A stretch of DNA of 64,000 bases from Hormiphora californensis (GCA_020137815.1 CM035356.1:7750001-7814000), one strand, 5' to 3'. Positions 7,448 to 55,300 are shown, counted from the stretch's first letter. Notes: generated from the letters alone by a model not told the origin. Made by a program: numbers and translations.

Positions 7448-8449
7448 ATGCCTCGATTTGTATCAGCGCCCAAATGCGTCGTCTGTGGAAAGAGCGTATA
7501 CGCTGCAGAGGAGCTGCATGCCGTTGGAAAACTGTACCACAAGTATGTTTTGGAAGTTCGGGACAACGATTAGAATTTGTTTTGGAATTCATCTATTCCC
7601 TAAGCCCTCCAATTTATCTTTAAATAATGCCTTTACCCAAAACTCTCCAACTCTTCTTGTAGGACGTGTTTCAAATGTACCTAAAACTCTCCAATTCTCC
7701 CTTTAAAACTTTCCAATTCCCCCTTTAAAACTCTCCAATTATCCGGCCTTTAAAACTCTCCAATTCTCCCTTTAAAACTCCCCAACTCCCCCTTTAAAAC
7801 TCTCAAATTCTCCCTTTAAAACTCTCCAATTCTCCCTTTAAATCTCTCCAATTCCTCCATTAAAACTCTCCAATTCTCCCTTTAAAACTCTCCAATTCCC
7901 CCTTTAAAACTCTCCAATTCTCCCTTTAAAACTCTCCAATTCTCCCTTTAAATCTCTCCAATTCTCCCTTTAAAACTCTCCAATTCTCCCTTTAAATCTC
8001 TCCGATTCTCCATCTGCAGGACGTGTTTCAAATGTAACTCTCCAATTCTCCCTCTGCAGGACTTGTTTCAAATGCACCGCATGTGGTAAGAAACTGACCC
8101 CTGGCCAGGAGACTGTTCATGAGGACGCTCCTTTCTGCAAGAACTGCTACGGAAAGAAATTCGGACCCAAGGGTAGGTTGATGGTACCATTGCTACCTGT
8201 TGAATCCGCTAACAGATGCCAAATGGTTGTCATGGTTACTGTATGGTTCCATTGCCACCTATTTTGTTTGTCAAGGTTACCATTAATCTCTCTCGCCACA
8301 CAAGCTGCATGGCTTGTCTGCCGAGAGAGATTGGAGAGAGAGGATAGAAGCTAAAACTAATGTATAATACTATAATAACCCTCTTCCTTCCTTCTTCAGG
8401 AATTGGAGGTGGAGCAACTGCCGGATGTCTTGCGGAGGACGCCGAATAA
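7448..8449 (+). CDS. Single-LIM cysteine-rich protein (CRP/CRIP/muscle LIM protein family), 85 aa; exons 7448-7542, 8060-8172, 8400-8449
   Basis: Spliced product MPRFVSAPKCVVCGKSVYAAEELHAVGKLYHKTCFKCTACGKKLTPGQETVHEDAPFCKNCYGKKFGPKGIGGGATAGCLAEDAE has a canonical LIM domain plus the Gly-rich YGKKFGPKG motif; GT-AG phases are consistent. Confidence 0.93.
7680..8059 (+). repeat. Intronic ~22-bp minisatellite (taaaactctccaattctccctt) with duplicated exon-2 starts
   Basis: About 15 units; AG|GACGTGTTTCAAATGT decoys start at 7663 and 8020. Confidence 0.85.
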
Positions 8450-8589
8450 TTCCACCCAGCGATATGTGATCACCACACAATTTTGTAGTTTTGATATGAA
8501 ATATAACTTTTGGATTTAAAATGTAAATTTTTGAAACTCGTTTGTAGGATTTCTAAAAAGGGTCGTTTAGTACTTCTACATAACATTTA

Positions 8590-9353
8590 ACGGGTGACAA
8601 CTAAAAATCTGGACAATTTTCTGTGAGCTCTAGCGCCGACCCCGCTTGAGATACAGCTTCAGGCCTGAGCTAGAACGATTTTTCAGACAATTTTAAATCA
8701 GAATAACACAACGGGAAAAATTAAAAAGTTCATTTTCATTGCGATATCGCATCATTTCCTCTTGACCCACCAAAGCATGTAGTACTTGAAATTTACACAC
8801 TTTTCTAGCACCTCTAGCGCCTTTTATTTTTGAGATACAGCTTCGGGGCAGCAATAGAATGATTTTTCAGACGATTTTGAACAAAATTAACTTTGTTTCA
8901 CACTCTGATAATCTCAATTCTAATCACAGAATCATCTGTAACAAACCCTCCAAAGCGTAGTTTACAGGTAATTTGAGAAATCGCCATTTTGACGATCTCT
9001 CGAAACATTTATGACGTGGAAAACCAACTTCCTGATAAGCTAAAATTTTGAAACTTGGCAGTTATGTTGGGTATGGCATGAACAACCAAACATCCAATTT
9101 TGAGAATTTTATCTCATCGGGAACGTTGTTTCTGATCACACAGAAATCTCAAATCTCCGTACACATGCTTTGGTGGGTCAAGAGGAAATGATGCGATAAC
9201 GCAATGAAATTGAACTTTTTAGTTTTTCCAGTTGTGTTATTCTGATTCAAAATTGTCTGAAAAATCGTTCTAGCTCAGGCCTGAAGCTGTATCTCAAGCG
9301 GGGCCGGCGCTAGAGCTTACAGAAAATTGTCCAGATTTTTAGTTGTCACCCGT
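8590..9353. mobile_element. MITE with ~190-bp TIRs and TA flanks (Tc1/mariner-like)
   Basis: ta|acgggtgacaactaaaaatctgg ... ccagatttttagttgtcacccgt|ta. Confidence 0.85.
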
Positions 9354-9839: not shown

Positions 9840-12800
9840 CTAGCCGGGTGGGAACGTGAACTGAGCTTTAATTCCCGGGGTAGAGGGAGAGCAAGGAAGT
9901 GAGACCTCCTTAGGGAGGACGAGGTGATCCATTGGGGGTAGCACCAAACCACCACCACCACCACTACCACCTGATTCATAGGAGAAGGTACTCTCAGTAC
10001 AATATGGCAGACTCCTCTCATCGTCATCATTTAGCAGGTCATCATTACTAGCTGCTACCCTGTCTAATTTAGCACGTGCAAGGGACCGGACCCTCTCTTC
10101 CTCACTGTACAACATGCTACTACCCTCACTCAAACTATTTCTAGTCCTCCTGGGTACTCTTGGTTGGTATAACTGCTCATGGCTAGCTCTCATGTTGTTG
10201 CTTTCAATGATTCGGTTCCGGGCTAATTCCCTTATTCTCTGCTCCTCAGCCCGAGCTAGGATCAGGGAAGGGAGGGACCCCATCATATGCGGGGAGGACA
10301 GGGATCCAATCATATGAGGAGCAGGGGCTGGGGAGACCATCATATGGGGAGGAGCAGGGGTTGACAGCTGATGCAGGGTCGGTGACATATGGGGGTGTAT
10401 CATAGTAGGGGTCTGCAGGGTCGGTGATACCATGTTGTTCCGGAACTGCTGCTGATGAGGGTTGGGAGACTGCTGGTGATGAGAGTTGTGGGACAGAGAT
10501 GAGAGGAGGGTTAGTTCAGGGGAGTTAGTGATTGGAAGTAGACGCTGCTCCGCTGGTTTCTTATTAGACCCACCTTCAATATTCTTGTTATGGTCTGACC
10601 TGCTTTTATTATTCGGTTTCTTTTTGTCACTTTTCTTCACTTTTCTCTTCTTCCTCCCACAACAACACAAACTAGTGAGACAAGAACAGCACTGGGCCGC
10701 ATACCCAAACACCTTACAGAGTCGTCCAACAACACCCAAAATAATGATAAAACCCACCACCGCAACAGCCATGACCACTCCCTCCTGCCAGGTATCAATA
10801 CCCCCGAACCATTCCACTGGGTTGAGGTACTTGGCCCATGTTGAGGGGCTGAAAATAGAATCCTTTTCTGTCACAGTGTAGTTGATGGTGTTGTTTGGTC
10901 GGTTAAAGTCGTCTGGGGACTCTACTTTGCAGTATATTGTCTTGCACTGTAGCTGGTAGTCACCTAAATAGGGAGAAAGGAGATGAGAAGGGTCACAGTT
11001 GGACACACACTTAGTAGGAAAATAGTCGTGAATGAATCTCAGATTCAGGTCACGGTTAATTTCACCGGAGACCTTAGGTTTCAGGGTTATTCTTGGTTAA
11101 TTTATTCCCTGAAAATTTCCCTGATATCTCAGGAAATACTGAAATAGCCGTTACTGAGCCCTGAGATCTGAGCCCGAATAGATCGCCCGAAAGATATATT
11201 TGCGTATTACGTGAAATCGTACTTTCACCACACACACACAAAGGCACACAGAAGGCACATGTGCCTTTTGTAATTTATGTGGTGATTGGTGAAAGTGTGG
11301 TGAAACGTAATGCGCAGATGATTAGATGAATCTTTCGGGCGATCTATTCGGGCTCTCCTTTCGCGAAAGGAGAGCCCGAATAGATCGTCCGAAAGATTCA
11401 TCTGCGCGTCGAAATTTCGATCCCCCGTGTATGGGGAAAGAGAGGAAGTGATAGAGAGAAATTGAGTCAGATAGAGAGGCTAGGGAGAGAACAGGGGAGT
11501 GTGTAAGTATGGTAATACATATATTGCCGCCAGGTGCTTATAGAAGAAAGAGATCAAAGAGAGAGAGAGAGAGAGATAGAGAGGGAGAGATAGAGAGGGA
11601 GAGATAGAGAGATAGAGAGATAGATAGAGAGAGATAGATAGAGAGAGAGAGAGATAGAGAGATAGAGAGGGAGACCCATGGAAACACATCGAAAAAGGAA
11701 TAACTGATCAAGCTGTTATATCATAGCGGCCCGGTTGCAAGTGTGTTACCACCTTTTATTACAAGAGGGATTATAAGAGTTTTGCATTAGTGTGTGCTTT
11801 TGTGAAACAGCAGTCGATCAATAGTCCAAACTATTTCATGTCTGCAATGTTAGAAAGTTTTTAGAAGTACTGATTTTTGTTCGGCAATGTTTGTTTCGTA
11901 CCAAATGAACATGGAAACGTGGGAATCCAGAATCCTAAGTCTAAACTCGTGTTTTGTTTTGGAATCGTAGAACATGTAGTCATGTGCAATTGTGCTAAAT
12001 ATAAATATTATACTTTGTAACTCTATCTAACTCTACTTCATAACTACCTATATAACCAACCCCGTACAATATTTCATTTTCATTGAAAAACTGAGAAGCA
12101 GCCTGAAAATTTCAAGCTGCTTCTCAGTTTTTCAACCAATAATTCACTGTACTGCTGTCACGGTCGCCTGTAGTATTGGCCTCACTCTATATTCTCATTT
12201 CTTTAAAATAAGCTAAGCAGAGCATTTGCCCTGACAGCTGTACTAAATATTGTACAAAACTACCATACTGAGTAATAATTTTGATATCTTTGGTAAACCC
12301 GGTAACTTATTTAACCATCACCAGTAAGATATAGTGCTAAAATTAATTATTTTTTTACTTCCACTTCCCCACTAGTACAATTATGCATTTGAGTAACACA
12401 CAAAATCTATATTTCATTCGGACCCCGATTTACCCCGATTTACGGACTCAACAAGATTTACCGGCATACGATCAGTGGAAAGGGTTTTGCCCGGTAAATC
12501 GGGGTTCCGATAAATCGTAATAACGAAAATTGCATCTAGTAAGCAGTACACACCAGTAAAAATTAAAATTTAAAAAATTGATTTAAAAAATTGATTTTAA
12601 AATCCAACATCCTAAAATCGTTGTTGAGTAAATCGGGACTCCTGTAAATCCTGTCTGGCGGCGCCAGACCCCAATTTGATTCTCAGATGGATCGCGGCGC
12701 CAGACAGTGTAAATCGGGCTCCGACTGCAGTATTACTAAATACTAACCCGTATGGAGGCATATTTCAGCTTGGTCCCCATCACTCTCGTCACTGCACCAC

Positions 12801-15800
12801 TCCGTTAGAGCGATCACTTTTGAGTAATTCTCCGCTACTCCCGTCCTTTCCCTGTATGGGGGGGGGGGGGGTGTGTGGCCTGGGTGGGGTTTTAAACCAC
12901 TCCCATCATTCCTCTCACTTAGCTCCCACTTAGTCGGCCTATATTTTATCACGCCACAGTCCCCCACACGTGTTTCCCGAATTGAGCAGTACAAAAAAAG
13001 GAGGATGGAGGGTTAACCCCTTGCTTAGCCTTTTCCTCAGACTCCACCCGAAACAGGGGGGGCCGGGGGGGGGGGAGGGCTTCTACACATATATGAGGAA
13101 GTGTTACTAATTAGTAATTACCTGGAGGTAACGGTAAGAACAAAACTTTCATCGAGATGATGTGTTCCCCGGATCAGACCATAGAGGGTTCCCTGACCAT
13201 TCACTACCGTCACATTTAGGTACCTATTTGTACAGGGGGGGGGGGTAGAGGGAGAGGAGCTAGGGGATCAAGTTGTTGTAGTTGGAGGGAGAGGAGCTAT
13301 AGCTATTATATGGATCAAGTGGGGCCAGGGGCGGGGAGTAATCCACCGTGTAAGATACGAAAAGGAGAGCATCACTATTATAATTCACTGATTGTTTTAC
13401 CGGTTGGAGTGGTTATCAAAGAATGCCTTGCCAAAGAAATCTTCGAAACTTGGTGTCGAGAACTCCTGGGTCACAACCATCACACCTCTCAGGACTATAT
13501 TTATTGTCACCCTGGGAAACCTGGAACATGTGTCAGATAAAATCCAGGGAAACCTGGAACATGTGTCAGATAAAATCCTGGGAAACCTGGAACATGTGTC
13601 AGATAAAATCCTGGGAAACCTGGAACATGTGTCAAATAAAATCCTGGGAAACCTGGAACATGTGTCAGATAAAATCCTGGGAAACCTGGAACATGTGTCA
13701 GATAAAATCCAGGGAAACCTGGAACATGTGTCAGATAAAATCCAGGGAAACCTGGAACATGTGTCAGATAAAATCCTGGGAAACCTGGAACATTTGTCAG
13801 ATAAAATCCTGGGAAACCTGGAACATGTGTCAGATAAAATCCTGGGAAACCTGGAACATGTGTCAGATAAAATCCTGGGAAACCTGGAACATGTGTCAGA
13901 TAAAATCCTGGGAAACCTGGAACATGTGTCAGATAAAATCCTGGGAAACCTGGAACATTTGTCAGATAAAATCCTGGGAAACCTGGAACATGTGTCAGAT
14001 AAAACCCTGGGAAACCTGGAACATGTGTCAGATAAAACCCTGGGAAACCTGGAACATGTGTCAGATAAAATCCTGGGAAACCTGGAACATGTGTCAGATA
14101 AAATCCAGGGAAACCTGGAACATGTGTCAGATAAAATCCTGGGAAACCTGGAACATGTGTCAGATAAAACCCTGGGAAACCTGGAACATGTGTCAGATAA
14201 AATCCTGGGAAACCTGGAACATGTGTCAGATAAAATCCTGGGAAACCTGGAACATGTGTCAGATAAAATCCTGGGAAACCTGGAACATGTGTCAGATAAA
14301 ATCCTGGGAAACCTGGAACATGTGTCAGATAAGATCCTGGGAAACCTGGAACATAAGTCAGATAAAATCCTGGGAAACCTGGAACATGTGTCAGATAAAA
14401 TCCTGGGAAACCTGGAACATGTGTCAGATAAGATCCTGGGAAACCTGGAACATAAGTCAGATAAAATCCTGAGAAACCTGGAACATGTGTCAGATAAGAT
14501 CTGGTGAAATATTTTATACCTCTTTTATACGCAAACACAGTACACCCAAACACAGGAAAGTGGACAATATAATTGTTTTCTTGTACAAGCTCAGTTTAGC
14601 ATCAGGCACTATACCTATGTTATTATTATGAACAGCACTTACTGGTTGTACTTTACAGAGACCGTCCTTTGGATGTTGTCCCTGACAGGCAGACTTGATG
14701 GAAGATGCGTGGAAATCTGTTACATCACGTGAATCTCTATCTATACGCTCCTCTTTCAGAGCAGAAAATGTAACTTCTGCCTCACTACTTCCACAATTCT
14801 CAACCTGACAAGCGACAGACGATGAGAGAGAGATAGAGAGAGAGGGGAGAGAGAGAGGGGGAAGAAAGAACGTGCTAAAAGCGTGACAGGTTACTTAGAA
14901 AAAGGGGAAGTTCACTAAATGAAGCTTTTTGAGCTCTTTCTGAAATTATATGGCGAGGTTGTCTTAACATGCACCTTTCATATAAAGCTCTATTTCTGTT
15001 ATACCCATGAATTGTAGTACTGTCAGAGCAAATTGGCCTGCAATCAGACCTGATCCCATTATCATTTCTTCAAATGAACCGCGATGGTCAGAGCGCTGGC
15101 CTGACAGTGCTAGTACCCTAATTATGCCCCTTCAGTTCTTCGCCCTATAAAAGGTGCATTCTTCTATTGAATATTGATAACTTTGGGGGAGATTGCTTTT
15201 CGATCACATCAAAGCTAGGAGAGACCTCTTTATGTTATAATGAACCTCTGTTTTGTTGTAATGAACCTCTATTTATTTTTTTATGTTTGTAAATTTACCC
15301 CTGAGGTTTCAGGGTTCATTGACGGTTATTCCAGTTGTTTTTCAGTGCTCTTCTTATTAAACTTACATTGACATCAAAGGCTTGCTTGACTTGCTGTGCA
15401 TCAAACTCTCTCCTCCCCGAATCCCTGATCTTGTACCATCCCAATTTAGTGATATCCCATTCTTCTAGGGAATTAACGTCAAGATTCGTCCTCACATCCT
15501 CCTCATTGGCAATACCAAAGTACCTACAGAATTGAAATGCTGTTATGATTCAGAGAGAGTACCTACCTACAATTTAATTTAAACGCTGTTATGATTCAAG
15601 TTTCAGATTTTGGATTTTAGATTTTAGCTGGAAAATTCAGGAACTTTCTGACTCCTAGGCGGGGCTAGACTAAAGAGAGATAAGTCATACCAGAGATACC
15701 AGATCTCGAACTGTCAGAGCATTGGCCCTGCCGCGCGAGAACTGTGGTCAGAGCATTGGCCTGACAGATCTCGTAGCATCTGAGAACTCATATATATTGA

Positions 15801-17762
15801 AAGTTTCAAATCGTGATATAATATCAGCCGAGTGTAGTACGACTACGTGGTAGAGAGCTACCCCCCTTATTACCAGAGACTATAACTACTGCAGCAGCAG
15901 CTGCTACGGATCTTCTTACATTTCATTCAGCTTCAAGCTCTATAGCATTCTCTTTGTCTAAGGGCTTGATATAGGCTCGATGTTTAAACTTCTCGTATTT
16001 TTCCTTTTTCTTCTATCTCTATATCTATTATTCATTTCATTTTAACTCTTTTTCACTCTCTTTTTCCTGCTGACATTTAGATTAAACTCTCACGTCATAT
16101 TTATTCGCGTCAATTTAAGTTCTTAAACATTGCTATAAACCGATTGATTTTTCAAAAAGGCATTTAAATATGGCATGAAAATAACACATACAGAATTGCA
16201 ATCCTGCATGTGTCATTTTCATGCCTGAATGAAACTATAGTCAACACCTGGAGTTGCCCTGCATGGTTACCACGGCAACAACAACATCTGGTTACCATGG
16301 CAACAACAACATGGTTACCATGACAACAAAATGGTTACCATGGCAACAACAACATGGTTACCATGGCAACAACAACTCCACTACTTACCATCCATCAGGG
16401 ATGTTGTTAACATTTCCAAGGCTATCAAAGGAAATATTTTCGATTACATCATCGTCAATCAATGGAAACATCGTACCTTAGTGGGAAATTTAGTTTAGTT
16501 AGAGAGAGAGTCTTCTTTTACCTTCTCGAAGCTTCGAGCTTTTATTTGATTTGGTATATTTTCTAGAAATTAATCATAGCTGGTGATTTGATTGAAAGTT
16601 TGTGCACATTTAAAAGTATAAGATTGTGACAGATTGTGCAATTATGGTTCCACAGAATTCGAAAAAAAGAGATCTCTCATCCATGCCCGGTTTGAAACTC
16701 ATACTATTCGTATTGAATTGTACTTGCAGTTGTAGTTTTGAGAGGTAACTTCCCGGGGAAATTATTGTCATTTGTAATTATATCATTAATTCATATCACT
16801 ACATATCATTATTAATTCATTTTAATTAACTTTAATTAACTTACTGCCACTAAATAAGTTGTGAATCTGTGTATCAGTGGCACCGTCTCGTGTGCTGATA
16901 GTAAAGCTACCCCGAACTGACACGTCAGACAACTCGAAGGCCTTGTAAACCACCTCTCCGCTCTGTTTCACTCGCACTGAGCAGCACACCTGTGTTGAAT
17001 TGTTAATTTTATTGATTTAGTACCATGTTAGGTCATTGTTTAATTGTACTTTCAATTAATTCAATTACATGTTATAATTGGGCACTATAGCTATAGGGTC
17101 TCACTGGGCATTGCGCCCCTCTGATCACATATACCACCTAGTATTTTGGTCTATAATTGATATGTTTCATGAAACCGTGCAGCTACTAGCTAGTATTCTA
17201 TGTAGTATAGAGCTGATTTCAGAGATAGATTTCAGAGAATTTGTATGTGGTTAACTGATTTACTGATTTATTGGAAATGATCGGAGAGGGAGTTATACAG
17301 GTGTTACCATGATCATTAGGGGGAGCAGCAGCTGTTGTGGGTTGTTAGAGGGGGGGGGGGGGTGTGATGATTTCAGGTGCAGATCTATCTATCTGATATA
17401 AAGCTGTGCAAATAACTGATTTCACAGCCGAACACAGAGAGCATGCAATTAGGAACCTATAGAAAGACTTGCCCAAATTAGGGGGTTACAGAGAAAAGTG
17501 TGGGGTAGTTAATTAATTAATTGATCAGTTGATCGATGGATAGATCTTATACAATGTGCAAACGACCAAACTCGTCACTCGAGATACACACTTACATCTG
17601 CGTCTCCAAGCTGTGACTGAAAACCACACCCAATAGTGCTCTGTCCCTGTTTGTAGACGTTGTAGCAGTGGGTGGTTGATCCCCCGTCCACTCTACAACT
17701 ATCACGCTCAGGATAGCAGTGCTTTTCTGCCATAGGGCAGTCACATATGCATTGAACCTTGG

Positions 17763-17826
<64 letters not shown>

Positions 17827-17987
17827 GAGAGAGAGCGACTAGATGACTACGAAATTTAGATATACGATAGCGCTCGCAGATCCTCTCTCGCTCTCGCTCT
17901 CTCCTTCGCTTATCTCTCTCTTCTCTCTCTCTCTCTTTTCTCGCTGCGCTCTCCTTCTCTCGCTTCTCTCTCTCTCTCTCTCTCTCG

Positions 17988-18019
<32 letters not shown>

Positions 18020-18900
18020 CCTCTCTCTCCTCTCTCTCTTCTCTCTCTCTCTCCTCTGCCGCTCTGCTCCTCTGCCAGCTCTTTACCTCACCCTGTCACT
18101 AATTCCTCTGCTCCCCTCTTGAATACAATAGTCAATGTGTAATAAATTCTAACTAACTGCTCCCGGGAACTGCGTGGGTGAAATGGTAGGTATTTTTAAA
18201 ATTGTAAATTCCTTCTACACTATCGAACGTGAACTGATAGCTTTTCCCCTCGGATCCCTGAAAGTGTCATGATTAGAAACATTGACTTGAGTCTTGACTA
18301 GATTATTTGCTATATTAGCACATTTGTCAATATTAGTCCCCTTCATATATCTTTGGGGGGGACGGCTATAATTTTCCATATTTAAAACCCCCATAGGCCC
18401 CCACTACTTAGAAGATCATTTTCAAAACTTTTAACGTCGGGAGGGGGGGGGTTAAAGAAGCCAAGATTTAAGTGATTAAAACCCCCCTTTAAACCCCCCC
18501 ACACCATCTTTTCCTTTTATCCCCCTCCCCTACTAAACAGGTAATACTCTTTTGACCCTCTAACACCCATTTTTACAAACTTGTGAGGTCCCCTATTTGT
18601 TATACCCCTTATTTTAACAAAAACCTTTTACATCTTTTTTGCGATCGGGGTGTCCCAAAGTTCCCACCTACCACTTGTGGATCCATCACAGTAAAACAAG
18701 CCGTTTCCCCCGTTCCCACATCAAATGATACTATTGTTTCCGTTTCCCCCCTTTTTGCCGCTCTCGGTCATAACCAAGTTTGTTTTAATACTTTAAAAAA
18801 AAAAAACCATACTCCAGCACAAAACGCCCGGCCCGTTTGCTACCTGCCATCCGAAATATAGGTTTTTTTACCATAACCCTTTCCTGGGCAGTTTTCCCGA
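9840..18900 (-). CDS. EFF-1/AFF-1 (FF family) fusexin, class II cell-cell fusogen; exons ~18790-18672, 18257-18158, 17757-17596, 16989-16845, 16476-16389, 15523-15367, 14804-14643, 13520-13401, 13223-13122, 12851-12748, 10963-9840; 5' end unresolved
   Basis: FF-type motifs occur in order: SFDVGTGETACFTV, YHFTHAVP, VQCICDCP..CY..QSTIGC..VCCSV, VNSLEEWDITKLGWYK, VNVENC, DNHSNRYLNVTVVNGQGTLYG, WAKYLNPVEWFGGI, then a TM helix and a Cys/basic juxtamembrane segment. Intron phases chain correctly apart from apparent indels near 14687 and in the noisy ~18.2-18.8 kb sequence. Confidence 0.85.
12417..12728. mobile_element. Tc1/pogo-type MITE (cagtcgg...gatttacc family)
   Basis: Inverted ends tcggaccccgatttac / gtaaatcgggctccgactg; a related copy with TA flanks lies at ~56023-56159. 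Confidence 0.6.
13511..14500 (-). repeat. 33-bp tandem array (~30 copies) made of the fusogen 3' splice site plus exon start
   Basis: Minus-strand unit attttatctgacacatgttccAG|Gtttcccagg; the last copy continues into exon 13520-13401. Confidence 0.92.
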
Positions 18901-20555: not shown

Positions 20556-20659
20556 TGGAGAGCTGCAGCAGCAGTAGTAGTGATCATATAGCTGCAGTGT
20601 TTAATTTGTTACCGCTGGTGCCAACGAGTGCACCTGTAATGTAAATCTCATATCTTTCC

Positions 20660-24779: not shown

Positions 24780-25485
24780 TTGTATTGCCCCTTATCACAT
24801 GTGTATTGCCCCTTATCACATGTGTATTGTCCCTTATCACATGTGTATTGCCCCTTATCACATGTGTATTGCCCCTTATCACATGTGTATTGCCCCTTAT
24901 CACATGAGTATTGCCCCTTATCACATGTGTATTGCCCCTTATCACATGTGTATTGCCCCTTATTACATTTGGATCCATCGCATCCTATTCTCGCTGCGCG
25001 AATAATATGTGATATAATATATATAATAATAATATAATATAATAATAAGATGTGAGATCGATCTCGGTCGCTGCGCGACCTCGATCTCACTCAGGCAGCA
25101 ATGTGGCCAATTATTACATGTGTATTGCCCCTTATCACATGTGTATTGCCCCTTATCACATGTGTATTGTCCCAATTATCACATGTGTATTGCCCCTTAT
25201 CACATGTGTATTGCCCCTTATCACATGTGTATTGCCCCTTATCACATGTGTATTGCCCCTTATCACATGTGTATTGCCCCTTATCACATGAGTATTGCCC
25301 CTTATCACATGTGTATTGCCCCTTATCACATGTGTATTGCCCCTTATCACATGTGTATTGCCCCTTATCACATGTGTATTGTCCCTTATCACATGTGTAT
25401 TGCCCCTTATCACATGTGTATTGCCCCTTATCACATGTGTATTGCCCCTTATCACATGTGTATTGCCCCTTATCACATGTGTATT
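24780..25485. repeat. 21-bp minisatellite (tgtattgccccttatcacatg)n in two blocks, 24780-24965 and 25112-25485
   Basis: About 9 + 18 units separated by a ~145-bp spacer; ends immediately before an AG upstream of the ATG at 25503. Confidence 0.92.
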
Positions 25486-31500: not shown

Positions 31501-32043
31501 TACAACTGTTCTAATTCCCCCTTCCCTCAGGTTGTGGTGTATACAACTGTTCTAATTCCCCCTCCCCTCAGGTTGTGATGTATACAACTGTTCTAATACC
31601 CCCTCCCCTCAGGTTGTGGTGTATACAACTGTTCCCATCTCCGGAACCACGCTGTGAAACTCCAACTCTCCACAACCGGAGAAGTTCCCCTGTATACCCG
31701 TGATAGAGAGGTTAAATACCCCGCCAGCACCAAAATATCCATCAGACACTATCATCCGGGGGCAGTGATACACTGGTGGGGGTGGACGGACACATGGACA
31801 CATAGGACCCTCGACCCATCCAGTGCTAATTCCAAGGAGTTTGATAGTCTAGATGATGAGAGTTGTAAGAGAACGTTTGTCAGTATGTTGACTAATACGA
31901 TGGAGGAATTCATTGAAAAGTTAAATAAGGGAGGATGGAAATATATCGCGTGTATGGTACAGTTGAACCCGCCTGATACTGGACAGTTCCCACATCCTGG
32001 TGGAATGGGTGGATGTACTACAGCAGCTCCACCGAATAGCTAG
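25503..32043 (+). CDS. BACK-domain-like protein (~297 aa); exons 25503-25612, 25838-26038, 26281-26432, 31613-32043
   Basis: GT-AG introns with phases 2, 2, 1 give one open frame. WQTLDLSNLLTLRGADYIGPVEYAEICVAWIEHH...IWESVPFRKL resembles the BACK helical motif; the domain call is by eye. Confidence 0.7.
26582..31633 (+). repeat. 41-bp satellite (~100 copies) whose unit is the exon-4 start plus branch point/polypyrimidine/AG; interrupted by a TIR element
   Basis: Unit GTTGTGGTGTATACAACTGTTC-taataccccctcccctcAG; ~72 copies before and ~27 after the insertion (length/41). Confidence 0.95.
29552..30514. mobile_element. Non-autonomous TIR element with internal ~40-bp subrepeats and a (CCCTAA)n tract; 7-8-bp TSD
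   Basis: ~150-bp inverted termini (ccctccctgccgacggacctcc...); TATACAA duplicated at 29545-29551 and 30515-30521; six CCCTAA at 30079-30114. Confidence 0.88.
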
Positions 32044-36300: not shown

Positions 36301-37719
36301 ACCGGAACCGGAAGAAGCGCCCCAACCTCCCAATTGGGCCCCGGGGTTTCCCGGTGTTTACAAAAAGGGTCTTTTTAAACCATGTTTGGAAAAAGCCCTT
36401 GCGCTTTTTAGGGGCAAATTCCCGAAATTGGGGGAATTTTTGCGGTTCCCCGTATTTTTGGAACTACCAAAGCAGCACCCGATAGTTATATTAAAACGTA
36501 AATCAAATTTTCCTCCCAAATTTTCCGAATAAAATTTTATTTTGGGTATTTTTCCTTCCCCCCTAAATTGCCCGGGTGGTTTGAAAGAGAATAAAGCCTT
36601 TGGATTTTGGTTGGTGGGGTTTTTCCTGGGGTTCCCCTTTTGGGAACCGCCCCCTTTTCTACTTAAAGAAAATGTTGACCTGTCCCCTTTGGAAAAAAAA
36701 CCTGGCACAGGAAGAGATGGAAAAGGTTGGAGCCTTTCACTGCCTACCAGGGGAGAGAGTTTGGAAAAAGTTAGAGCCTGTCACAGTGCACCTGCAGAAA
36801 GAAAAATAAAAGGGGGAGAAACAAAAAAAAAGAGTAATGAAAAACCGAAAAGGGGAAAATTTTACCGTTTTTAATAACAAGCACAGTAAGCTCTCCTTTT
36901 ATAGAGCTGAAAAGGGGTTTGTGACAAAAGTAAACCACCCAACCCAAGAAATAACTGGTTTCCCTGATTGGCTTACAATTTTAAAACCTGACAAAATAAC
37001 AGTTCTAAATTTGGGTTTTTTTACAAACGGGGGTTCCTGTTTGGGGAAAAATTTAACCCAAATTTAAAACATAATTGGGTGAAAAACTTCGGATAATTTC
37101 CCAAAAAAAAACCCCCCTTTCAATTTTTAAAAAAATGGGGGGGGAAATTTTGAAACAAAAAATCAATTTAAAAAGGGGGAAAATAATTAAAAAGGGAACC
37201 CCCTTAATTAAAGGATTTAAAAATTTTACCGGTTCCCCCCAGTCCTTAAAGAGTTTCAGCCCCTTCGAGCCCGGAAATTTGGTTCGAAAAATTTGGGAAC
37301 TTGGCCCAGCAAGTTTAGGTTTTTAAAAATTTTTAAAAAATGTGTAAAAAGGACCGAAAGCTAAGGTATGGGTCTTTTAACATTTAACGGGTGAAACCCG
37401 GAGCTAATTGTGGGGAAAGGGAGAAATAGGAAAGGGGTTTGGGAAGGTCCCACTGTTAAAAAAAAACCCCAAAGGGGGAAAACACCCTTGGGCCCGGGAG
37501 TGATGCTGGCCGGTAAAAAAGTCCGTTTAACTGGTTTAACTGTTTGTTTGGTCAGACTTTGGCTGGATTTTCAGAAATTTAGGGGAGGATGGCTGCTGAA
37601 TGTTGCGGTACCTGTGGGAGAGTTATTTTTTTAACCCCCGGGTTTTGAGAGCAAAAAAATTTTTTGGGATAACATTCTTTTTTGTTTAAACAGGGGCCCT
37701 CCCTGGTTTCCCTGTTTTG

Positions 37720-38169
37720 GTTAACAGCGGCCCCATCCCGGGCTTCTAAATTTTTAAACACTGCCCCATCCCGGGCTTCTAAATTGGTTTAACAGCTGCC
37801 CCCCCTGGTTTTTCTGTTTGGGTTTTAACCCGCTGTCTATCCCTGGCTTCTAATTGGTTAACATCGGTCCACCACTGGCTTCTGATTGGTTAACAGCGGT
37901 CCATCCCTATATCTTCTGATTGGTTAACAGCGGTCCATCCCTGGCTTCTGATTGGTTAACAGCTGTTCATCCCTGGCTTCTGATTGGTTAACAGCGGTCC
38001 ATCCCTGGCTTCTGATTGGTTAACAGCTGTCCATCTCTATAGCGTCTGATTGGTTAACAGCTGTCCATCCCTGGCTTCTGATTGGTTAACAGCTGTTCAT
38101 CCCTGGCTTCTGATTGGTTAACAGCTGTCCATCCCTGGCTTCTGATTGGTTAACAGCTGTCCATCCCTG
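37720..38169 (+). repeat. 34-bp tandem array (~11-13 copies) containing an acceptor-like site
   Basis: Unit gcttctgattggttaacAG|ctgtccatccctg; the last copy reads on as LSIPVDSLILPKTI* (38157-38201) with AATAAA near 38273. Confidence 0.85.
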
Positions 38170-43300: not shown

Positions 43301-43353
43301 CCTCTATCTCACCTACGAGACGGCCTAATAGAAGAAGAAGAAGAAGCTACTCA

Positions 43354-46300: not shown

Positions 46301-49300
46301 TTTTCCACTCAGTTGGAATAGACCCTTCATCAAAAACTTTGTTAAAAATTAATACTAGTGGATATGCCAATGATTTGTGACATTTTTTCAAAACTATACC
46401 GTCTATATTATCTGGGCCAGTGGCCTTGGATGCATCTAATTTTCTTAATATATCTACAACTTCATCAAAGTGAAAAGTTTCGTTGTTAAAATCATTATCG
46501 TGGTTTCTATCAAAATCAATTGGTGTGCTATACGTACTGGCTTGTGTGAACTGTTTACAAAAAAAATCATTAAACATTTTACATTTTTGTTGACTACTTT
46601 TTTCAGAGTTATCCTCGTAATGAACTATATCAGGGACTCTAGTGCTGCTAGTTTTTGATTTCACATGTTTGAAAAACTTTTTGGAAATTGCAGCTGTAGA
46701 GGCAGACTCATCAATGGAGGAGAGTTCTAGAAAGTGTGTTTCTTTCTCCCTTGACGCTTTCCTGTACTCTGCCTCCATACAAGTAAATACATTTTTTAGG
46801 GAAACATCATTTGGAAACTTCAGAGAGGCTTTTCTAGAATTATCCATTGACCTTTTTAACTGTCTCAACTCATCATCGTACCAGGGTGGTTGAGATCCTA
46901 TTTTTACATTAACTAATGGTACATGGTGTCTTAGGGTAATATCTAATTTTGATTTAAATTTCTGAAGAGATTGCTCGGCCCTGAGGTGTTTGAATTCCTT
47001 AGTCCAGTCATACCGAATCAGTCCCTCATTAATCGCATCCCAATCAGCTTTCTTGTAAGAAAACTTTTTAGCCGTCTTAAACTTGGGTCTTATCTTTTTG
47101 ATTTGCACCTCACATTTAATAGTGAAGTGGTCAGATTTGACTAAACAATTTTCTTCTACCGATACATTGGAAAAACACGAACTATTATTTGTGAGAATTA
47201 GATCTAATACATTTCCATCCCTGTGTGTTGGTGCGTTTATTAACGAACTCATACCCAGAGATGTAAAAAGGTGAGCAAAGCCTTCGTGTATACTATTGCT
47301 CGATACTGGGTCATCCCAATCTTTAACCGAACTTAGATTGAGATCCCCGATGATTGCTAGGTTTTTATATTTTCTAGATAGGCGTGTGTAGTACCGCTCA
47401 GTTTCTTCAAGACAATCTGACCCCGAGTAGTCATACCTGTAGAATGTTGAGATACATATCGGGGTCAGGTTTTTTGACTTGAGCAGTATGGTGACAATAG
47501 GCAGATTTACCTTGTCCTTTACCTGATCAAATTCAATACCCATGTTATTCTTACATAGAATCATAACTCCTCCCCCACCCTTTTTATCATACATTTCCAT
47601 GTCCCTTTTAGTTCTATCTTTTCTGTATATTGTATAGAACTGATCGGACACTAATTCCCCATCATTGACATGCTTGTTCAACCACGTTTCATTTAATACT
47701 ACAATTTCTGGCTCATAAGTAAACAAGTATGCTCGGAGATCAGAGAGTTTAGATACTTGAAACTGGGGCTGATCACCACTAATTGATTGCATATTTATGA
47801 GACCATTAACGTTGCAGTACACCACACTAATTTTTGTTTTTGGTTCAGTAGGCCCAGGATTTACAATACTGGGCTGGTGGATAACAATAAGTGCTTTTGC
47901 TAGACTCGAAAGAAAGATTAATAGTACGACTAGTCGACACCTAACAATGATTTTGGAACAGGTGTTCCCTATTTTCCCCATACTTTTGAATATCACCAGG
48001 GTTAACACACAATTAGCATACCAAATGTAATGCTGGTTGATACTCTTACCGACTTCTTCTCGGCCTGCTTCCATACATAGTTCTCTACAGGACAGAGAGG
48101 AAGTACATCTGGACATAGAGCCTAAAAGAATAAGTATTAGTATACTGTAACTTAGGTAGAGAATCAAATGAAATGGTGATATTGATGATGTTTGTCTGTA
48201 CTGTCGGTCAAGGGTTTTGTTAGTAAACATTTTTCTTTTTCCACCCCTCCCCCCTGCAAACCTCCCAATAGTTTGTCTGTACTGTTCAGCACTTATCATT
48301 GTGGGGGTTTTGGATTTTGGGAATTTGGCACTAAGGGTTCACGGAGGGTCTGTTGGTTGGGGTAATAAAACAACTTCTCCCCCCAAACATATATATTATC
48401 AATGCAGCAAAATCAGCAATCAGCGTAAAACTTCGTTATAAATCAGGTCAGTTAAGACCGAGTAACCATATTTATTCAAATGCACACCATCCCTACAATA
48501 AAGTGATGAGTTGAAAAACAAATCACGTGTTAGGAAATCAGCCATCCAACTCACAAAACTGCAATTCATGAGTTGGGACACACAATTTACAATTTTGTTG
48601 TACATGGTAACATTAGAGACCGTATATGAGAAGTCTCCTCTCAGGGGAAGGACATGTGTAATCACTATCTGTGTTTGTATCTGATTTTTCGGAATGACCA
48701 GTTGGGCTATTAAACAGTAATCACGACATATTAATTATAGATTTTCCTACCAGATTTACCTTTTAGAATCCTCTTCCTCTCAGGTGACAAGAAAGAGCTA
48801 CGTCCTGGAGCTTTCTCTGTCCCGTGCCTCTTGGGCTTCCTCAGCGCGTGAAGATGTAGCAGTTCTATAGGAGGAGAAACATATATCAGGGGTATGTGTG
48901 TTGAAAACTTTGAACCAACTAAAATTCAATTCATTTTACAAAATTAGTACTCCTCTTTACTTCTAATATTGATGTCCCGTTTTGATTCCTTACTTCTAAT
49001 ATTGATGTCCCGTTTTGATTCCCTGCTTTTTCTCCGAAATATCTCAGTGTCCTCGCTAAACATCATTTCGTGACCCTCGTCCGGATCATACCTGCATAGA
49101 GGAGGACCTATGATTAGGACCTATAATTAGGACCTATAATTAGTAGTTAAAGGATTTAAAGTGCCTGCATAGAGGAGGACCTATAATTAGGACCTATAAT
49201 TAGGACCTATAATTAGGACCTATAGTTAAAGGATTTAAAGTGCCTGCATAGAGGAGGACCTATAATTAGGACCTATAGTTAAAGGATTTAAAGTGCCTGC

Positions 49301-52300
49301 ATAGAGGAGGACCTATAATTAGGACCTATAGTTAAAGGATTTGAAATGCCTGCATATAAGAGGATCTAGTTATAGGGCTTAGATACCTATACGTTGAGAT
49401 ACGTTGAGGATATTTAGAAATCCTACACTGAGTGTGTGTATTCAAATTACAATACGATGTGTATTTGTACATTAAAGTCTGACTGTGGTCTTGAAACTTC
49501 CTGCAGCTGAACGGAGCTTTTTTGAATGTTCAGTGCACTGTGCAGGTAAGTATAAGGGGGTTTCGAGACCAGACCACAGCTTCAGACACCATGGTAAATA
49601 CTCATTGTACATTAGGGGTTGCTAAGTCGGAATGAATCGCCATGAATCATATTTCCTGTTATTCATTGGGTAATTATCTACTGATATCCGGAGTTTCAGC
49701 CCAAACAGTTGAGCCACTAAGGATCGCAAGCCACTTTTGTGACCCTTGTTTTTGCTGTTTATTGCAGTGCGCATGGGTTGTATTCGTGCACATACGGTTG
49801 TATAGTATTAAAATTGAGTATTCAAAAATTTCAACTTAGCATTAAATGAAGTATGAACGTTTGTAGACTGGCGCGTTATGAAGTTGGCTGTTCCCAGCGC
49901 GAGCTGGGGACAGCCAACTGGAGTTTAATCGCCCGGCAGGGCGATTAAACTGGTTTAAATCCCGACTCCGATCCCGAGGCGCCAGCCGAGGGTGAGGGGG
50001 AGGTGATTTAAACCTATAACGCGATAGGCTAACAAACGTTCATATTTTATGAAACCCGATAGTAATTACACACAAATAAGAGACACAACACAAGGTGAAA
50101 CACACTAGAACTGCTGGTAAATAGTTTGGGCACGTCGCGCCCCCCATGTTCGCGCGCCCGTAGGGCGATCCCCTCACATAGGGGGCACAGTCACGACTAG
50201 GGCACTCGTAGAATGCTTCGTTCTGCTAAACGGCGCTAGTTAGCGTTTTAATTTTTGGTTTTTCTGATCGGTCATGTTCTAAATGAATGCAACGAACATG
50301 TCTCGATTTGAAACTCTCAAAAACCGTGGCGTAATCGCCGATTTGCTCAAATCGGTTTTTTGGCAATTACGGGAGAACGGAATATCCATAAAATCCCAAA
50401 TTCTGGGATATGTTAGAAGAGACAATTTGACACCTTCGTGTCGAAGGATTTGTCTCTTATTCTTCTGGTCTTCAACTGACGGCCATTTGAATTAATTTGA
50501 CCTCTCTTCCCCCGACCCTTAGTCCCACTAAACGACAGCTTTATAAGTAACCATCTTTTTTCCCAGGTAGAGAATCCCTTGAACTGGTGCAACGTATAGG
50601 TGGATAAGCCAGAAACGATTTCTGGACAGAGGAATCGACTCTCAAAGTTGGATGATTTCAAACAGTGATTGGACTTTTTGGGACACTTTGACTTTAAAAA
50701 GATTGATACATTTATCATTTTCCGACATAATTTTACCTAATTTGACCAACGAAAGTGTTTAATTAATCGTTAATTGCTTAATTAAGAAAATCGGACGCGC
50801 AAATATACAAACGCGCTTGTTTTGGACAGAAATTGCGCGCGCTGAAGAATCTTCAAAGTGAATCGTGACGGCGCGAACTGAAAAAGTTGCGCGGTTTTTT
50901 TTCGAAACTCGAAAAGTCAAGAATATTTTGCGCACGGATCAGGACCCATCCTCTTCTAAGGGCCTGCAGCAAAGACAAAACTTTTCCGGAACTATTGAAA
51001 ATCTAAGCGATGAATTATTCTGAGGCTCGAGCGACCTATACACAGCGTATGTATGGCGACATTTAAAGGATTCTGACCTGAAACGTCTACAGAAAGTTCA
51101 GAACGTCTACAGAAAGTTCAGAACAGTGCGACACGATACATATATGGGAAAAGAGGAAAACGCGGTGTAACAAAACTTCGCATGAAATCACACTTCTTGC
51201 CTGTGAAACAGCGAATAGAGTACAAAATTTGCTCGATGGTATACAAGATTCTTCATGATCAATCCATACATGTCTGAGATGTTAGTGAAGCGGCCCCAGA
51301 AAGTGAAATCACTCCGAGTGGATAATGACGTCACCGCTCTGAAAGAGGCGCGGAGGAGTGAGTACCACTACGAGAACACTAGAGGCGCTTTCAGTATTGC
51401 TGCACCTAAATTATGGAATCAGCTACCACGATCAATCGGGGACTCAGAATCCCTTACTACTTTTAAAACATCCCTGAAGACGCACTTGTTCTTTAGAGCA
51501 TACAACCAATGACCGGCAAAATAACCCTCACTTCCCTACATCCACATGGATTCCTGAGTAACTACCGTCTCTAACTCCTATTCCTGATTCCTGGGCTCCC
51601 TTTTTCTCGTGTATTCCTTCACATCGATCCCTGGGTCCTTTACTCCTACTTCCACTCCACATCGATCCCTGGGTCCTTTACTCCAACCTCCTCCACATTG
51701 ATCCCTGGGTCCTTTACTCCAACCTCCTCCACATCGATTCCTGGGTCCTTTCTCTACCTTGCTCCACATCGATCCCTGGGTCCTTTCCAACCTCCTTCAC
51801 ATCGATCCCTGGGTCCTTTACTCCTACCTCCTCCACATCGATCCCTGGGTCCTTTTCCTTGCGCTGCTCCATATCGAGCACATCCTCATTCCTCATTCTA
51901 AAAACTATTTACAACATCCCTTCTACACGCTACTCATCACCTGTTATCACGACAGTTGATTGATTCTGTTTTTTGTACATACATATACACACTGTGATAT
52001 TGAAGAGTGTTTGAATTAGACGAGACCCAGCTAGAGGTAGCTACGGGCGGAAACGTCCGCATGTTGGACATATATTTTTTTAAATTTGTGAACCAATATG
52101 TTTAGTGTATTAGCGGGGTGTCAATAATTACATTTATTTAATTTATTGACATTATAAATATAATTTTAATCTTGTAATCTTGTAATCTTGTAATCCATTT
52201 CAACTGAGATAAAAATTTGGAGCTCAGGAAGATCATGTTTAGTTCTTATTCCTTAGTGAGCTGAGGTGACATAAACGAACTTCAGTTGGACCTGCTCAAG

Positions 52301-55300
52301 GTATCAGAGTGTTGTCAGGCACTGACTGTACAGTGTACAGTGTACAGGTTGTGTGGTGTACACTGTACACCGCACAACCTCACGTAGCCGCACCGGGCCT
52401 AAGGCTCGCCGCGAAGAGGACAGTTCACTTTATTGTATAAAACTTTTTATTTTTAAACATTGTAAACCTCTCTAGTGTGTTTCATGGCGAAACGAGGAAA
52501 TCTGACGAGTGACGAAATGGATAAATCTGAATGAACGGTACAAAAACCCAGGATTTGATGCCCTCCAAACATCAATTTTATCACTTTTCTAATTGGATAC
52601 TGCGTTCTGGATACTGTGTTTAGTATCCCATGCTTGGCACTCTCTCAGATACTCAGCAGGTAAGATATGCTATCACCACGAGAAGTGGGGGACACAAAGT
52701 CATAACCCAATTTGATCCAAGCGACAGTGCGCTCAGATGGGGTCGGCGGCGCAAGGCAGCACCCTTGACCCGTGATAACAATCTCCCCTATTTCAGAGAA
52801 CCACAGCAGTGAGTAGCTGCAAGATACTTCCCAGTTTTATTCAACGTATCTTCCACAATGTCCACAGACCAGAACTTACAAGAAAGGAGAAGAAATTGAA
52901 CAGCTACCATTACCCCCTGATCTCATCACCATCCCCTCACTCTGGTAGGTGATAGTTTTGTTTCTTAGTTAAAGTCCACCTGGAATTTGTACATAAACTA
53001 AAGATACATATATTAAACACTGCCATTACAACTATTTTAGAACCCCTTCTACTCATCCCCTTGCCCTATCTCCAGGTAAACAAACATGAGTTTAGAAATC
53101 TGGTGTTGAGGTGACATGACAGCTGTGAGATGACAAGAGGGAATGGTGGGTGTGCCAGTCTCAATTCTCATCTCTGTAAAACGGTAGGCACCACTGAAGT
53201 TATACCAAATTTAATGCACAGTATTTTTACACAGTACAGTTATACACAGTATAACAGTACACACATACGTCATACATGTATTACCAACACTGCGGGTTCG
53301 TCACCAAGGGAATCTCAAAACACAGTGGTTCACCAAGTTTACAACTGTTTCGGGAGATAGTTTTGGTGTGTATTTTGGGTGGGGTGATGTTCAAGAGGTC
53401 AGCCGAAATTTACACTGTAGTAGAGTCGATTAGCACACATGACTCTCGCAATTTTTACTGCCTCATCGTTATTGCCTGGCTCTATCCTCTTTCCGTGCGC
53501 CCCGCCCTCTTTTACAAATGTAAAGGAGAGTTATAACATCGTTATGGGTCTTACGCAGCATGTTGAGAATTTATATATATATATTTGCCAACCTACTCTT
53601 GACGTTATATCTGTAACCCACACACTCAATTCCAGGTGTTCAACGGTTGTCCTTTTCAACAAGAATAACTGCATTATGTTTCATAATGCTATGTTTCCCC
53701 GCCAACCTTTATTTTCATAACCATCTAATGGGAAGGCGGGACAGGCATTTCCGATCATCTATGAATCAGTCAAACCGTATAGAACAAATCATTGTGTTTT
53801 AGTAGCACTAAATTGTGCGCCACATTGCGCGGCTCACATTTCCTGAAAACGTGCCATTGAAGTATTTGATGAAGGAGCAACATCGTTGTCCCTCGCAACT
53901 GAGCGGGTTACGTTACACAAAAGCGTGACACTTCACTAGTATGTAAAATAAAATTGTCGAATTCTAAACCCCTATGCCTTTTTACAAAAGGCATCCGGGT
54001 GAATGCCTTCGGCATTCACCCGGGCGGGGAAAAAATAGTCCATCAGAGGATAACTACTATCTCAGACCCTGCTAGTTATTGATGGGAAAAGTGGTTATGT
54101 TGCATGTCACGCTCCTCTGCTCGCCGTCAAGTGGTTATGGCATCGACATTATAAGGTGAGAGCAACCAGTAGTTTATACTTTGTAGTTCTCTATACTAGT
54201 AGTTGACAATTCAAAATATTTTAATTCTATATGTTTTCTCTCGCCCTACCTGCTACCATTCTATGAATTCTCTCTCTTTCACCCTCGGTAGCTGTCAGTC
54301 TCTCCCTCACTATCTCTCTAGCTCTATCTACCTCTCTCTCCGCCTCTCTCAATCTCCCCTCTCTTTCTTGCCCGCGTAGCGAACATGAGGGGCGCGACGT
54401 GCCCAACTCTCTTTCGTTGTAGTACTGGATTTAAGATATCTCACATGTGATCCCATCCTTCTAGTTGTGGGTGGTTGTCTTGCGGGTGGTTGTGTTGCGG
54501 GACCGGATCACTAGAATTGGATGTTAGGTTTATCAATTGTTTAGCAGACATAGCCCCTGGCAACCGTGTATCTTCCCTGGGTGGTATTAATTCCACAACC
54601 TTCTTTTTCCATTTTTGGTGACCCCCTGAAATTTATAAAACTTTCCTAGTAACCCCGTAGGGCTATTCCCAAGATAGCAGAAATGAAATCTAACCTATTC
54701 TCTCTACAGATAACTTTACGATAAGAGAGTCGAAGGATATTTTAAACTGCACTGGGGAATCAATAATGAGTTGTCGAACCGAATGGTGAGTTTACAGCCG
54801 AGTATTTTACTAGGCAGCAAAATCGTCGATTTTTGGGACAAAGTTGGCAGCATATAATTTGACTTTTGAAAATCGTATTTATCTAAAATTTTGAAAATCC
54901 GGGCACCGGGTACAGCCCTCTAACACTGTCCCCCCCCCCTTTACCAACCCTCTAACACTGTTCCTCCTCTAACACTGTCCCTTTTTACCAACCCTCTAAC
55001 ACTGTTCCCCCTTTACCAACCCTCTAACACCCCTTCCCTCTCAGGAAGGAGATCTTGAAGAGGAACAGTCAGGCCCAGCTGCAGTCAAGAGATCCCCACT
55101 GGAAGCTATGACCCAGACTGATAAGGAGCTAGATCGGCAGATCGCATCTCGACCTGAAGCTGATGATGTGGAGGATTACTGTGATAAGGTTTGTGTCCAG
55201 CTCTAACCCCATTTAGGTTGCTTTTTCAATCCCCTAACTGCTAATTTACACTCCCGTGTATGGTAAGCTGGGGCAAAAGTGGCCCATTTTTAATTTATAC

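What the first reader, a model, noticed from the sequence alone, without database searches (positions are those of the whole stretch)
7650..55044. Window-wide pattern: tandem repeats are amplified splice junctions
Seen: in at least five unrelated genes the repeat unit straddles an intron-exon boundary. Acceptor examples are LIM x3, fusogen x~30 and x2, BACK x~100, 38-kb x~12 and 49.1-kb x5. Donor examples are 48.99-kb x2 and 51.7-kb x~7. At acceptor arrays the frame-preserving site is the LAST copy. Branch-point/polypyrimidine arrays also abut acceptors (7680-8050, 54915-55044). Established: tandem duplication of AG|GT sites is a proposed route to intron gain, and AG|GT sites permit recursive splicing. 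Inference: this lineage may have a splice-site-associated duplication process plus a splicing rule (exon definition, recursive splicing or NMD filtering) that tolerates large decoy arrays. I know of no description of this, but could not search.
Basis: partly seen in the sequence, partly recalled or inferred. Interest (0 to 1): 0.85.

Follow-up and report, generated by a model that had tools for sequence, protein, structure and literature searches.

The report
Comb jelly "mirage" splice-site repeats
In a comb jelly genome, a few short DNA repeats are head-to-tail copies of a gene's own intron–exon border (up to about 100 copies), and in the one gene with RNA data only the last copy is spliced; this likely harmless kind of repeat is already known from lancelets as "mirages", and most repeats in the window are not of this kind.

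Summary
Partly confirmed, but over-generalised and of a known kind. The window is ctenophore DNA (spliced leader on the LIM RNA). Three arrays are well-supported tandem copies of real acceptors:
- LIM x3: RNA contigs of two studies use the last copy.
- EFF/AFF fusogen x30: homologues align gap-free at the last copy.
- 41-mer x100: a relative has the same intron short, with one copy.

The 48.99-kb donor x2 and 49.1-kb x5 rest on an open-frame gene model only. The 38-kb and 51.7-kb examples are unsupported.

Only 5 of 31 arrays straddle a modelled site (expected 1.2-1.8; inside genes 5 of 13 vs 2.4, p about 0.07). Ten of 31 straddle or end within 25 nt (expected 2.2-3.7), 8 of them at acceptors. 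"Last copy keeps the frame" follows from the geometry and fails for the fusogen, where all 30 copies are in frame. Recursive splicing is not supported.

These are "mirage" minisatellites, described in amphioxus and human F7. This scan has noted them before in annelid, urchin, mollusc and cartilaginous-fish DNA. My searches found no ctenophore report.

The parts
7425..8541 (+). LIM-domain (CRP-like) gene; trans-spliced leader joins at 7425; exons to 7542, 8060-8172, 8400-8541
   Evidence: Pfam LIM; RNA contigs X7 and X9, leader as loose end; leader letters match the published H. californensis leader
7640..8074 (+). LIM mirage: three copies of acceptor plus exon head (AG at 7662, 8019, 8059); a 22-mer branch-point/pyrimidine sub-unit x15 (7682-8011) lies between copies 1 and 2
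   Evidence: TRF; RNA uses 8059/8060 only; DNA run X1 shows an allele skipping 7931-8035
9843..18257 (-). EFF/AFF-family cell-cell fusogen gene, at least 10 exons; one frame break inside exon 14643-14804 (consensus error or real lesion)
   Evidence: Pfam EFF-AFF on two exons; homologues P0009 and P0012-14; frames
13511..14509 (-). Fusogen mirage: 33-nt unit (23 intron + 10 exon nt) x30, all copies in frame and stop-free; the supported acceptor is the last (exon starts 13520)
15517..15604 (-). Degenerate two-copy duplication of the fusogen acceptor at 15523, only 3-5 exon nt shared
   Evidence: below TRF score 40; a relative has a different duplication at the same acceptor
24781..25485 (+). 21-mer x33 array without AG, ending 3 nt before a candidate acceptor (25488) upstream of the ATG of the 25.5-32.0-kb gene
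   Evidence: the acceptor is a model only
25503..32043 (+).
   Evidence: open frame; homologue P0001, 62% identical
26579..31634 (+). Mirage of 41-nt units (branch point, pyrimidine tract, AG, about 22 exon nt): 100 acceptors, only the last open; preceded by a 12/22-mer pyrimidine array at 26506-26568
29553..30512 (.). Inverted-repeat element of about 960 nt inserted into one 41-mer unit, with a 9-nt direct repeat on both sides
37717..38169 (.). 32-mer x14 array; splice-junction origin not supported
48957..49022 (-). Two-copy donor duplication (33 nt: 29 exon + 4 intron); both donors keep the frame
   Evidence: gene H (48050-49091) rests on an open 3-exon chain only
49091..49368 (-). Intron-tail array with five AG copies (49349, 49296, 49243, 49164, 49091); only 1 exon nt in the unit
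51615..51855 (.). 36-mer x7 array; donor origin not supported
54949..55030 (+). Branch-point/pyrimidine array (17/28-mer) ending 14 nt before acceptor 55044
   Evidence: gene J rests on an open chain only
55445..55476 (+). 11-mer branch-point-like array ending 21 nt before acceptor 55497
3200..3239 (+). 19-mer x2 branch-point/pyrimidine duplication ending 10 nt before acceptor 3249

Best explanation
A minority of the window's tandem arrays are 'mirage' minisatellites: head-to-tail copies of a real intron-exon border, likely made by ordinary slippage or unequal crossing-over and likely tolerated because one intact site stays attached to the exon. A duplication that takes in branch point, pyrimidine tract, AG and exon head leaves the last acceptor copy (or first donor copy) joined to the rest of the exon, which is geometry and needs no special rule. 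The mRNA uses that copy (shown for LIM; inferred from homologues for the fusogen and the 41-mer gene). The choice is inferred to come from exon-side context (exon definition and exonic signals), because decoy and true acceptors are identical in sequence; NMD may clear rare out-of-frame products. The excess of arrays near acceptors likely comes from a survival filter (frameshifting copies inside exons are removed) plus slippage-prone C/T-rich acceptor sequence.
For: RNA joint 7542->8060 in two studies, with no RNA cover in the bins between. The array varies between DNA samples: an X1 joint skips the middle acceptor, and X5 depth is 33 against 200-300 in the flanks. Relative P0001 has the same intron at about 96 nt with one acceptor. 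Fusogen homologues align gap-free at the last copy. Decoy and used acceptor scores are identical for the 41-mer (15.6 = 15.6) and the fusogen (5.9 = 5.9). Units are nearly all local to their own locus. Arrays show shared variants, a repeated variant block and an inserted element. The same anatomy, length instability and normal splicing are reported for amphioxus mirages. Near-site enrichment is 10 of 31 vs 2.2-3.7, and 9 of 13 vs 4.0 inside genes.
Against: Only LIM has RNA, as contigs that drop rare forms and from animals whose alleles are unknown, so competition with decoys is not directly shown. Near-site enrichment survives conditioning on gene spans (p 0.004-0.005), so 'ordinary duplication plus filter' may not be the whole cause. 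Exon definition was not tested. The 33-mer and 41-mer arrays were not checked in reads, and the window has low-quality stretches. The fusogen model has a frame break, so relaxed selection cannot be excluded there.
Confidence: 0.7

Rival explanations
1. A mutational process aimed at 3' splice sites (for example R-loops or breaks tied to co-transcriptional splicing) seeds duplications at acceptors in this lineage.
For: 8 of the 10 site-associated arrays are at acceptors. Enrichment persists inside genes (9 of 13 vs 4.0). A relative has an independent duplication, about 96 nt, at the same fusogen acceptor.
Against: Strict straddling is not significant inside genes (p 0.07-0.12). The window was picked for the pattern. 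Acceptor sequence is C/T-rich and low in complexity, and the null did not match for this. The scan's unchecked notes describe the same thing in many phyla, which if true argues against lineage specificity.
Confidence: 0.12
2. Decoy copies are functional alternative sites. The in-frame fusogen array would add 11-residue modules to the ectodomain, the double donor 11 residues, and the variant-D 41-mer units a 6-nt microexon.
For: 30 of 30 fusogen copies are in frame and stop-free. Both gene H donors are open. 4 of 98 41-mer units, including the first, carry a strong donor 6 nt after the AG (score 8.8).
Against: No homologue has such an insert. A 33-nt unit is in frame by arithmetic. LIM RNA shows only the last site. 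Amphioxus mirages are reported not to give aberrant mRNA.
Confidence: 0.08
3. The large arrays are assembly artefacts of a long-read consensus.
For: Homopolymer-rich low-quality stretches at 18.4-18.7, 33.9-37.4 and 40.3-42.7 kb. A frame break in the fusogen.
Against: The LIM array is covered by contigs of DNA runs X1 and X5, with allelic differences; X1 may be the assembly's own sample. The 41-mer array has 20 distinct units, a repeated variant block and an inserted element with flanking direct repeats.
Confidence: 0.05
4. Arrays are tolerated because each AG|GT unit is removed by recursive splicing.
For: Fusogen and 41-mer units begin with GT and end with AG, with a branch-point-like motif. 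The 49091 site reads CAG|GTATGA (acceptor 14.4, donor 8.6).
Against: Regenerated donors score -2.0 and -5.3; 64% and 94% of all GT in the window score higher. LIM units begin with GA and the 49.1-kb decoys with GC.
Confidence: 0.05

Closest known systems
Amphioxus 'mirage' minisatellites (Adh3, globins BflGb6/BflGb9, troponin C, PGBD5). Read: PMC3087553 section 16 in full and passages; PMC3902484 one passage. Canestro et al. 2002 (PMC117041) is not held and is known only through these citing papers.
   Same: Tandem units spanning an intron-exon border; both acceptors and donors affected; unit sizes overlap (10-72 and 150-160 bp there, 33-53 bp here); copy number differs between haplotypes; mRNA spliced normally.
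   Different: Different phylum (ctenophore). Up to 100 copies here against 3-6 in the globins. Several unrelated genes within 64 kb. Additional arrays made of branch point and pyrimidine tract only.
Human F7 IVS7 37-bp VNTR (PMC1557585; abstract and outline read)
   Same: A minisatellite whose unit spans a splice site and makes identical pseudo-sites that stay silent; the copy attached to the exon is used.
   Different: F7 is a donor array with an experimentally studied 5'-to-3' scanning rule. Here most cases are acceptors, where the last copy is used, and no experiment exists.
Intron gain by tandem duplication of AG/GT (Rogers model; ATP2A1, PMC3265369, abstract and outline read; variable repeats at human exon-intron boundaries, PMC2812944, passages read)
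   Same: Local duplication of sequence holding splice signals.
   Different: No new intron is shown here; the arrays lengthen existing introns.

Membership tests
Mirage minisatellite | Tandem unit contains both intron and exon sequence of a real junction | tested here: met
   LIM (RNA), fusogen x30, 41-mer. Donor 48.99 kb met on a model only. Not met or unsupported for 49.1 kb (1 exon nt), 38 kb and 51.7 kb.
Mirage minisatellite | Copies are local, derived from the host gene and not from a dispersed repeat | tested here: met
   Unit searches hit almost only their own kb bins within the window. No whole genome was held, so only the window was examined.
Mirage minisatellite | Normal mRNA uses the copy attached to the intact exon | tested here: met
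   LIM only: joint 7542->8060 in X7 and X9. Other genes are inferred from homologous proteins.
Mirage minisatellite | Copy-number polymorphism between alleles | tested here: met
   LIM array only: X1 joint 7930->8036 and low X5 depth over 7592-7815. Contig-level evidence.
Mirage minisatellite | Somatic instability (reported for Adh3) | not testable with these tools
   No raw reads were served.
Recursive splicing (ratchet points) | AG followed by a strong regenerated donor | tested here: not met
   Scores -2.0, -5.3, -8.2 vs 5.7-11.0 (matrix trained on the window's own 23 donors). Exceptions: 4 of 98 41-mer units and site 49091.
Recursive splicing (ratchet points) | Intermediate junction reads or saw-tooth intron coverage | not testable with these tools
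   Only assembled contigs were available.
Intron gain by tandem duplication | A new intron, absent from orthologues, formed from the duplicated segment | tested here: not met
   The 41-mer intron exists in relative P0001. The fusogen acceptor 15523 marks the start of the match in P0002 too.
EFF/AFF fusogen (host gene label) | Pfam PF14884 match | tested here: met
   Exon 17596-17757 27.9 bits (cut-off 25); exon 15367-15522 24.5 bits; homologues 168-198 bits.
   No family matched three single exons or P0001; single exons may be too short.

The most novel reading that the evidence does not exclude
Ctenophores carry mirages at high density with a real acceptor bias, so that the same acceptor is hit independently in related lineages. 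Their spliceosome picks the last of up to 100 identical acceptors by downstream context alone, even where no frame filter can act (the 30 in-frame fusogen copies). That would make mirage turnover a pan-animal, splice-site-biased mutational process and the fusogen array a natural test of 3' splice-site choice.
Probability: 0.2. Interest if true: 0.6.

Novelty: new member of a known kind. Interest (0 to 1): 0.3.

Why it matters
It extends a little-studied repeat type from lancelets and humans to ctenophores, one of the earliest-branching animal groups. The arrays are natural experiments on how one 3' splice site is chosen among identical ones; the in-frame fusogen array is the cleanest, because NMD cannot hide errors there. 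In practice such arrays lengthen short introns about fifty-fold (about 96 nt in the relative against 5180 nt here) and can mislead gene prediction and read mapping. Nothing here shows a new splicing rule.

Tried and rejected
No whole genome was held, so there was no genome-wide test.

RNA could be laid on 5800-12500 only. No junction outside LIM was tested with RNA, and X9's partial cover near 9645-10048 does not reach a fusogen junction.

A metagenome scan with a dispersed repeat of the window gave only 2 short loci, too little for a second sample. A genome-contig scan with P0003 found no relative. The first fusogen search among longer proteins found nothing; the representatives search did. 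The protein atlas did not answer. Canestro 2002 is not held.

Model corrections. A candidate fusogen exon 16192-16247 was dropped because phases fit without it. My first exon 18092-18148 and acceptor 14716 were wrong by homology. One search replaced them, with the donor of exon 18158-18257 set 12 nt off, which changes no count. This lowered the near-site count from 11 to 10.

Rows left out before counting, by a fixed filter: period under 10, microsatellite-like units, arrays inside the three low-quality stretches, and arrays inside the inserted element. Relaxing the microsatellite filter or the TRF score did not change the picture.

The 33.1-kb array was considered as an acceptor array. Read by hand, it fits better a duplicated stop-codon region of a minus-strand exon (acceptor scores about 6). 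The site-centred 24-mer test found 3 of 28 acceptors and 0 of 23 donors at 18 or more matches; its control (16 of 600) excludes arrays, so it is not a fair null.

The stretch 50.6-51.5 kb looks to me like the decayed end of a LINE reverse transcriptase. That label is recalled; Pfam and the window's own LINE did not confirm it.

Full report
ORGANISM AND DATA. No whole genome is held. An RNA contig of the LIM gene carries a 22-nt loose end plus AG that matches the spliced leader published for Hormiphora californensis (PMC8527503, passages read). The window is therefore ctenophore DNA; I did not try to narrow it further. Three stretches are homopolymer-rich and look like poor consensus, and I left them out of all counts. 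Only assembled contigs of public runs were available, no raw reads.

GENE MODELS. I modelled eight genes by canonical GT-AG sites and open frames. LIM has RNA support. The fusogen is an EFF/AFF family host gene, and homologues confirm its exon chain. They also reveal a frame break inside exon 14643-14804. The 25.5-32.0-kb gene has a homologue, P0001, but no Pfam match, so 'BACK' is unconfirmed. Genes A, B, H, J and K rest on open chains only.

LIM. There are three acceptor copies (7662, 8019, 8059). The second leads to a stop, and so does the first (read by hand). RNA contigs of two studies join 7542 to 8060 (depth 11.5 and 19.2), with no RNA cover in the bins 7592-8039. These animals' alleles are unknown. 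DNA run X1 shows a path skipping 7931-8035, which removes the middle copy, and X5 has low depth over the 22-mer array, so the array varies between samples.

FUSOGEN x30. Homologues P0009 and P0012-14 align without a gap when the last copy is used, which suggests the array is intronic.

FUSOGEN x2. This is a degenerate double. A relative's read-through protein repeats the first ten residues of the same exon 32 residues apart (P0002, P0005). That implies a different duplication at the same acceptor; it is inferred from protein alone, and the DNA was not seen.

41-MER ARRAY. It has 98 whole units of 20 types, plus one unit split by a 960-nt inverted-repeat element. Of 101 AG positions tested (100 array copies and one chance AG in the insert), only the last is open. 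In P0001 the same intron is read through as about 32 codons with one acceptor.

WEAKER CASES. The 48.99-kb donor x2 is real in sequence and both donors are in frame. The 49.1-kb array has five AG copies but only one exon base in the unit. The 38-kb and 51.7-kb arrays have no supported exon and weak site scores.

ENRICHMENT (first version). I kept 31 array clusters (TRF score 50 or more, period 10 or more, not microsatellite-like), collapsed each to one unit and placed it at random outside exons.
- Straddling a modelled site: 5 of 31. Expected 1.2 with 51 sites (p 0.006) or 1.8 with 27 hand-picked candidate sites added (p 0.03). Requiring 4 nt on each side gives 4 of 31 (p 0.014-0.055).
- Straddling, inside gene spans only: 5 of 13 vs 2.4 (p 0.07), or 4 of 13 vs 2.0 (p 0.11-0.12).
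- Straddling or within 25 nt: 10 of 31 vs 2.2-3.7 (p 0.002 or less); inside genes 9 of 13 vs 4.0 (p 0.004-0.005). Eight of the ten are at acceptors.
- Only the three genes with RNA or homologue support: 3 of 7 straddle vs 0.8-1.0 (p 0.03-0.06).
The window was chosen for the pattern and the null is not matched for composition, so these p-values are optimistic. The fair reading is a real but modest, acceptor-sided association, not a rule.

MECHANISM. Shown: anatomy, locality of units, variation of the LIM array, and last-site use in LIM. Inferred: origin by slippage or unequal exchange, survival because an intact site stays on the exon, and selection of that site by exon-side context. The last inference follows because decoys score the same as the true site. 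Recursive splicing is unlikely, since regenerated donors score far below real ones, with two local exceptions listed under Noticed in passing. NMD could help at LIM, the 41-mer and 49.1 kb, but not at the fusogen.

WHAT IS KNOWN. Ebner et al. (PMC3087553; section 16 read) describe minisatellite-like duplications of intron-exon boundaries, called mirages, in amphioxus globins and Adh3. They report haplotype length differences, normal splicing and a proposed route to intron gain. PMC3902484 (one passage) adds troponin C and PGBD5. Human F7 has a donor-spanning 37-bp VNTR with silent pseudo-sites (PMC1557585, abstract). PMC2812944 (passages) reports variable repeats at human exon-intron boundaries. 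PMC10078293 (passages) catalogues human repeats tied to splicing variation. PMC3265369 (abstract) shows intron birth by duplication. The Hormiphora paper reports 13% tandem repeats and, in the passages seen, nothing on splice sites. Searches (listings only, unless named above) found no ctenophore case and no genome-wide test of mirage enrichment. Subscription journals were not searched and I read no supplements. After I had reached the mirage reading, the scan's own notes showed the same structure in annelids, sea urchins, abalone, skate and elephant shark (unchecked AI notes). None mentioned a ctenophore, and none came from this genome.

VERDICT. It is a new member of a known kind, interest 0.3. 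The parts worth following are the in-frame 30-copy fusogen array, the 100-copy array, and the independent duplication of one acceptor in a relative.

Noticed in passing
window 9843-18257 (-), further exons probably to about 23 kb: Intron-rich EFF/AFF-family fusogen gene in a ctenophore, with a long cytoplasmic tail; one frame break in exon 14643-14804.
   Followed up: partly
P0002/P0005 vs window 15523 (-): A relative (81% identical exon) appears to carry its own tandem copy, about 96 nt, of the same acceptor and exon head.
   Followed up: partly
window 29553-30512: Palindromic element (163-nt arms, 96% complementary) inserted in the 41-mer array, with a 9-nt flanking direct repeat and (CCCTAA)6 in its middle; Mutator-like by the 9-nt repeat (label recalled).
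   Followed up: partly
window 26582 and three other 41-mer units: Variant units have a strong donor 6 nt after the AG (score 8.8), a possible in-frame 6-nt microexon; the first copy is one of them.
   Followed up: no
window 49091 (-): The acceptor is directly followed by a strong donor (CAG|GTATGA), like a ratchet point.
   Followed up: no
P0001 residues about 77-99: The relative has a 23-residue insertion shortly after the part of the exon that is duplicated in the window; it may be an extra intron read through.
   Followed up: no
window 33124-33308: 50/58-mer array that seems to duplicate the last codons and stop of a minus-strand exon (33250-33399).
   Followed up: partly
window 44910-48338 (-) and 4131-4580 (-): LINE endonuclease/reverse-transcriptase frame of 1143 codons, which opens in frame over an exon of gene H, and a second endonuclease fragment (Pfam).
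   Followed up: partly
window about 57924-59411: 1.5-kb palindromic element with TTAA near both ends; other palindromic elements at about 43680-44100 and 60540-60780.
   Followed up: no
window 63120-63270; L001:241-276, L002:1054-1089: Dispersed repeat shared with two metagenome contigs. L002 begins with the ctenophore spliced leader and looks like a papain-family protease mRNA (label recalled). In the window the element sits between two similar stretches of about 25 nt.
   Followed up: partly
window 39260-39871 (+): Secreted protein with 180-nt coding repeats that look thrombospondin-like by eye (label recalled; Pfam gave no match), running into a low-quality stretch.
   Followed up: no
window 18.3-19.1, 33.8-37.7, 39.9-42.7 kb: Homopolymer-rich stretches that look like poor long-read consensus; gene models there cannot be trusted.
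   Followed up: partly
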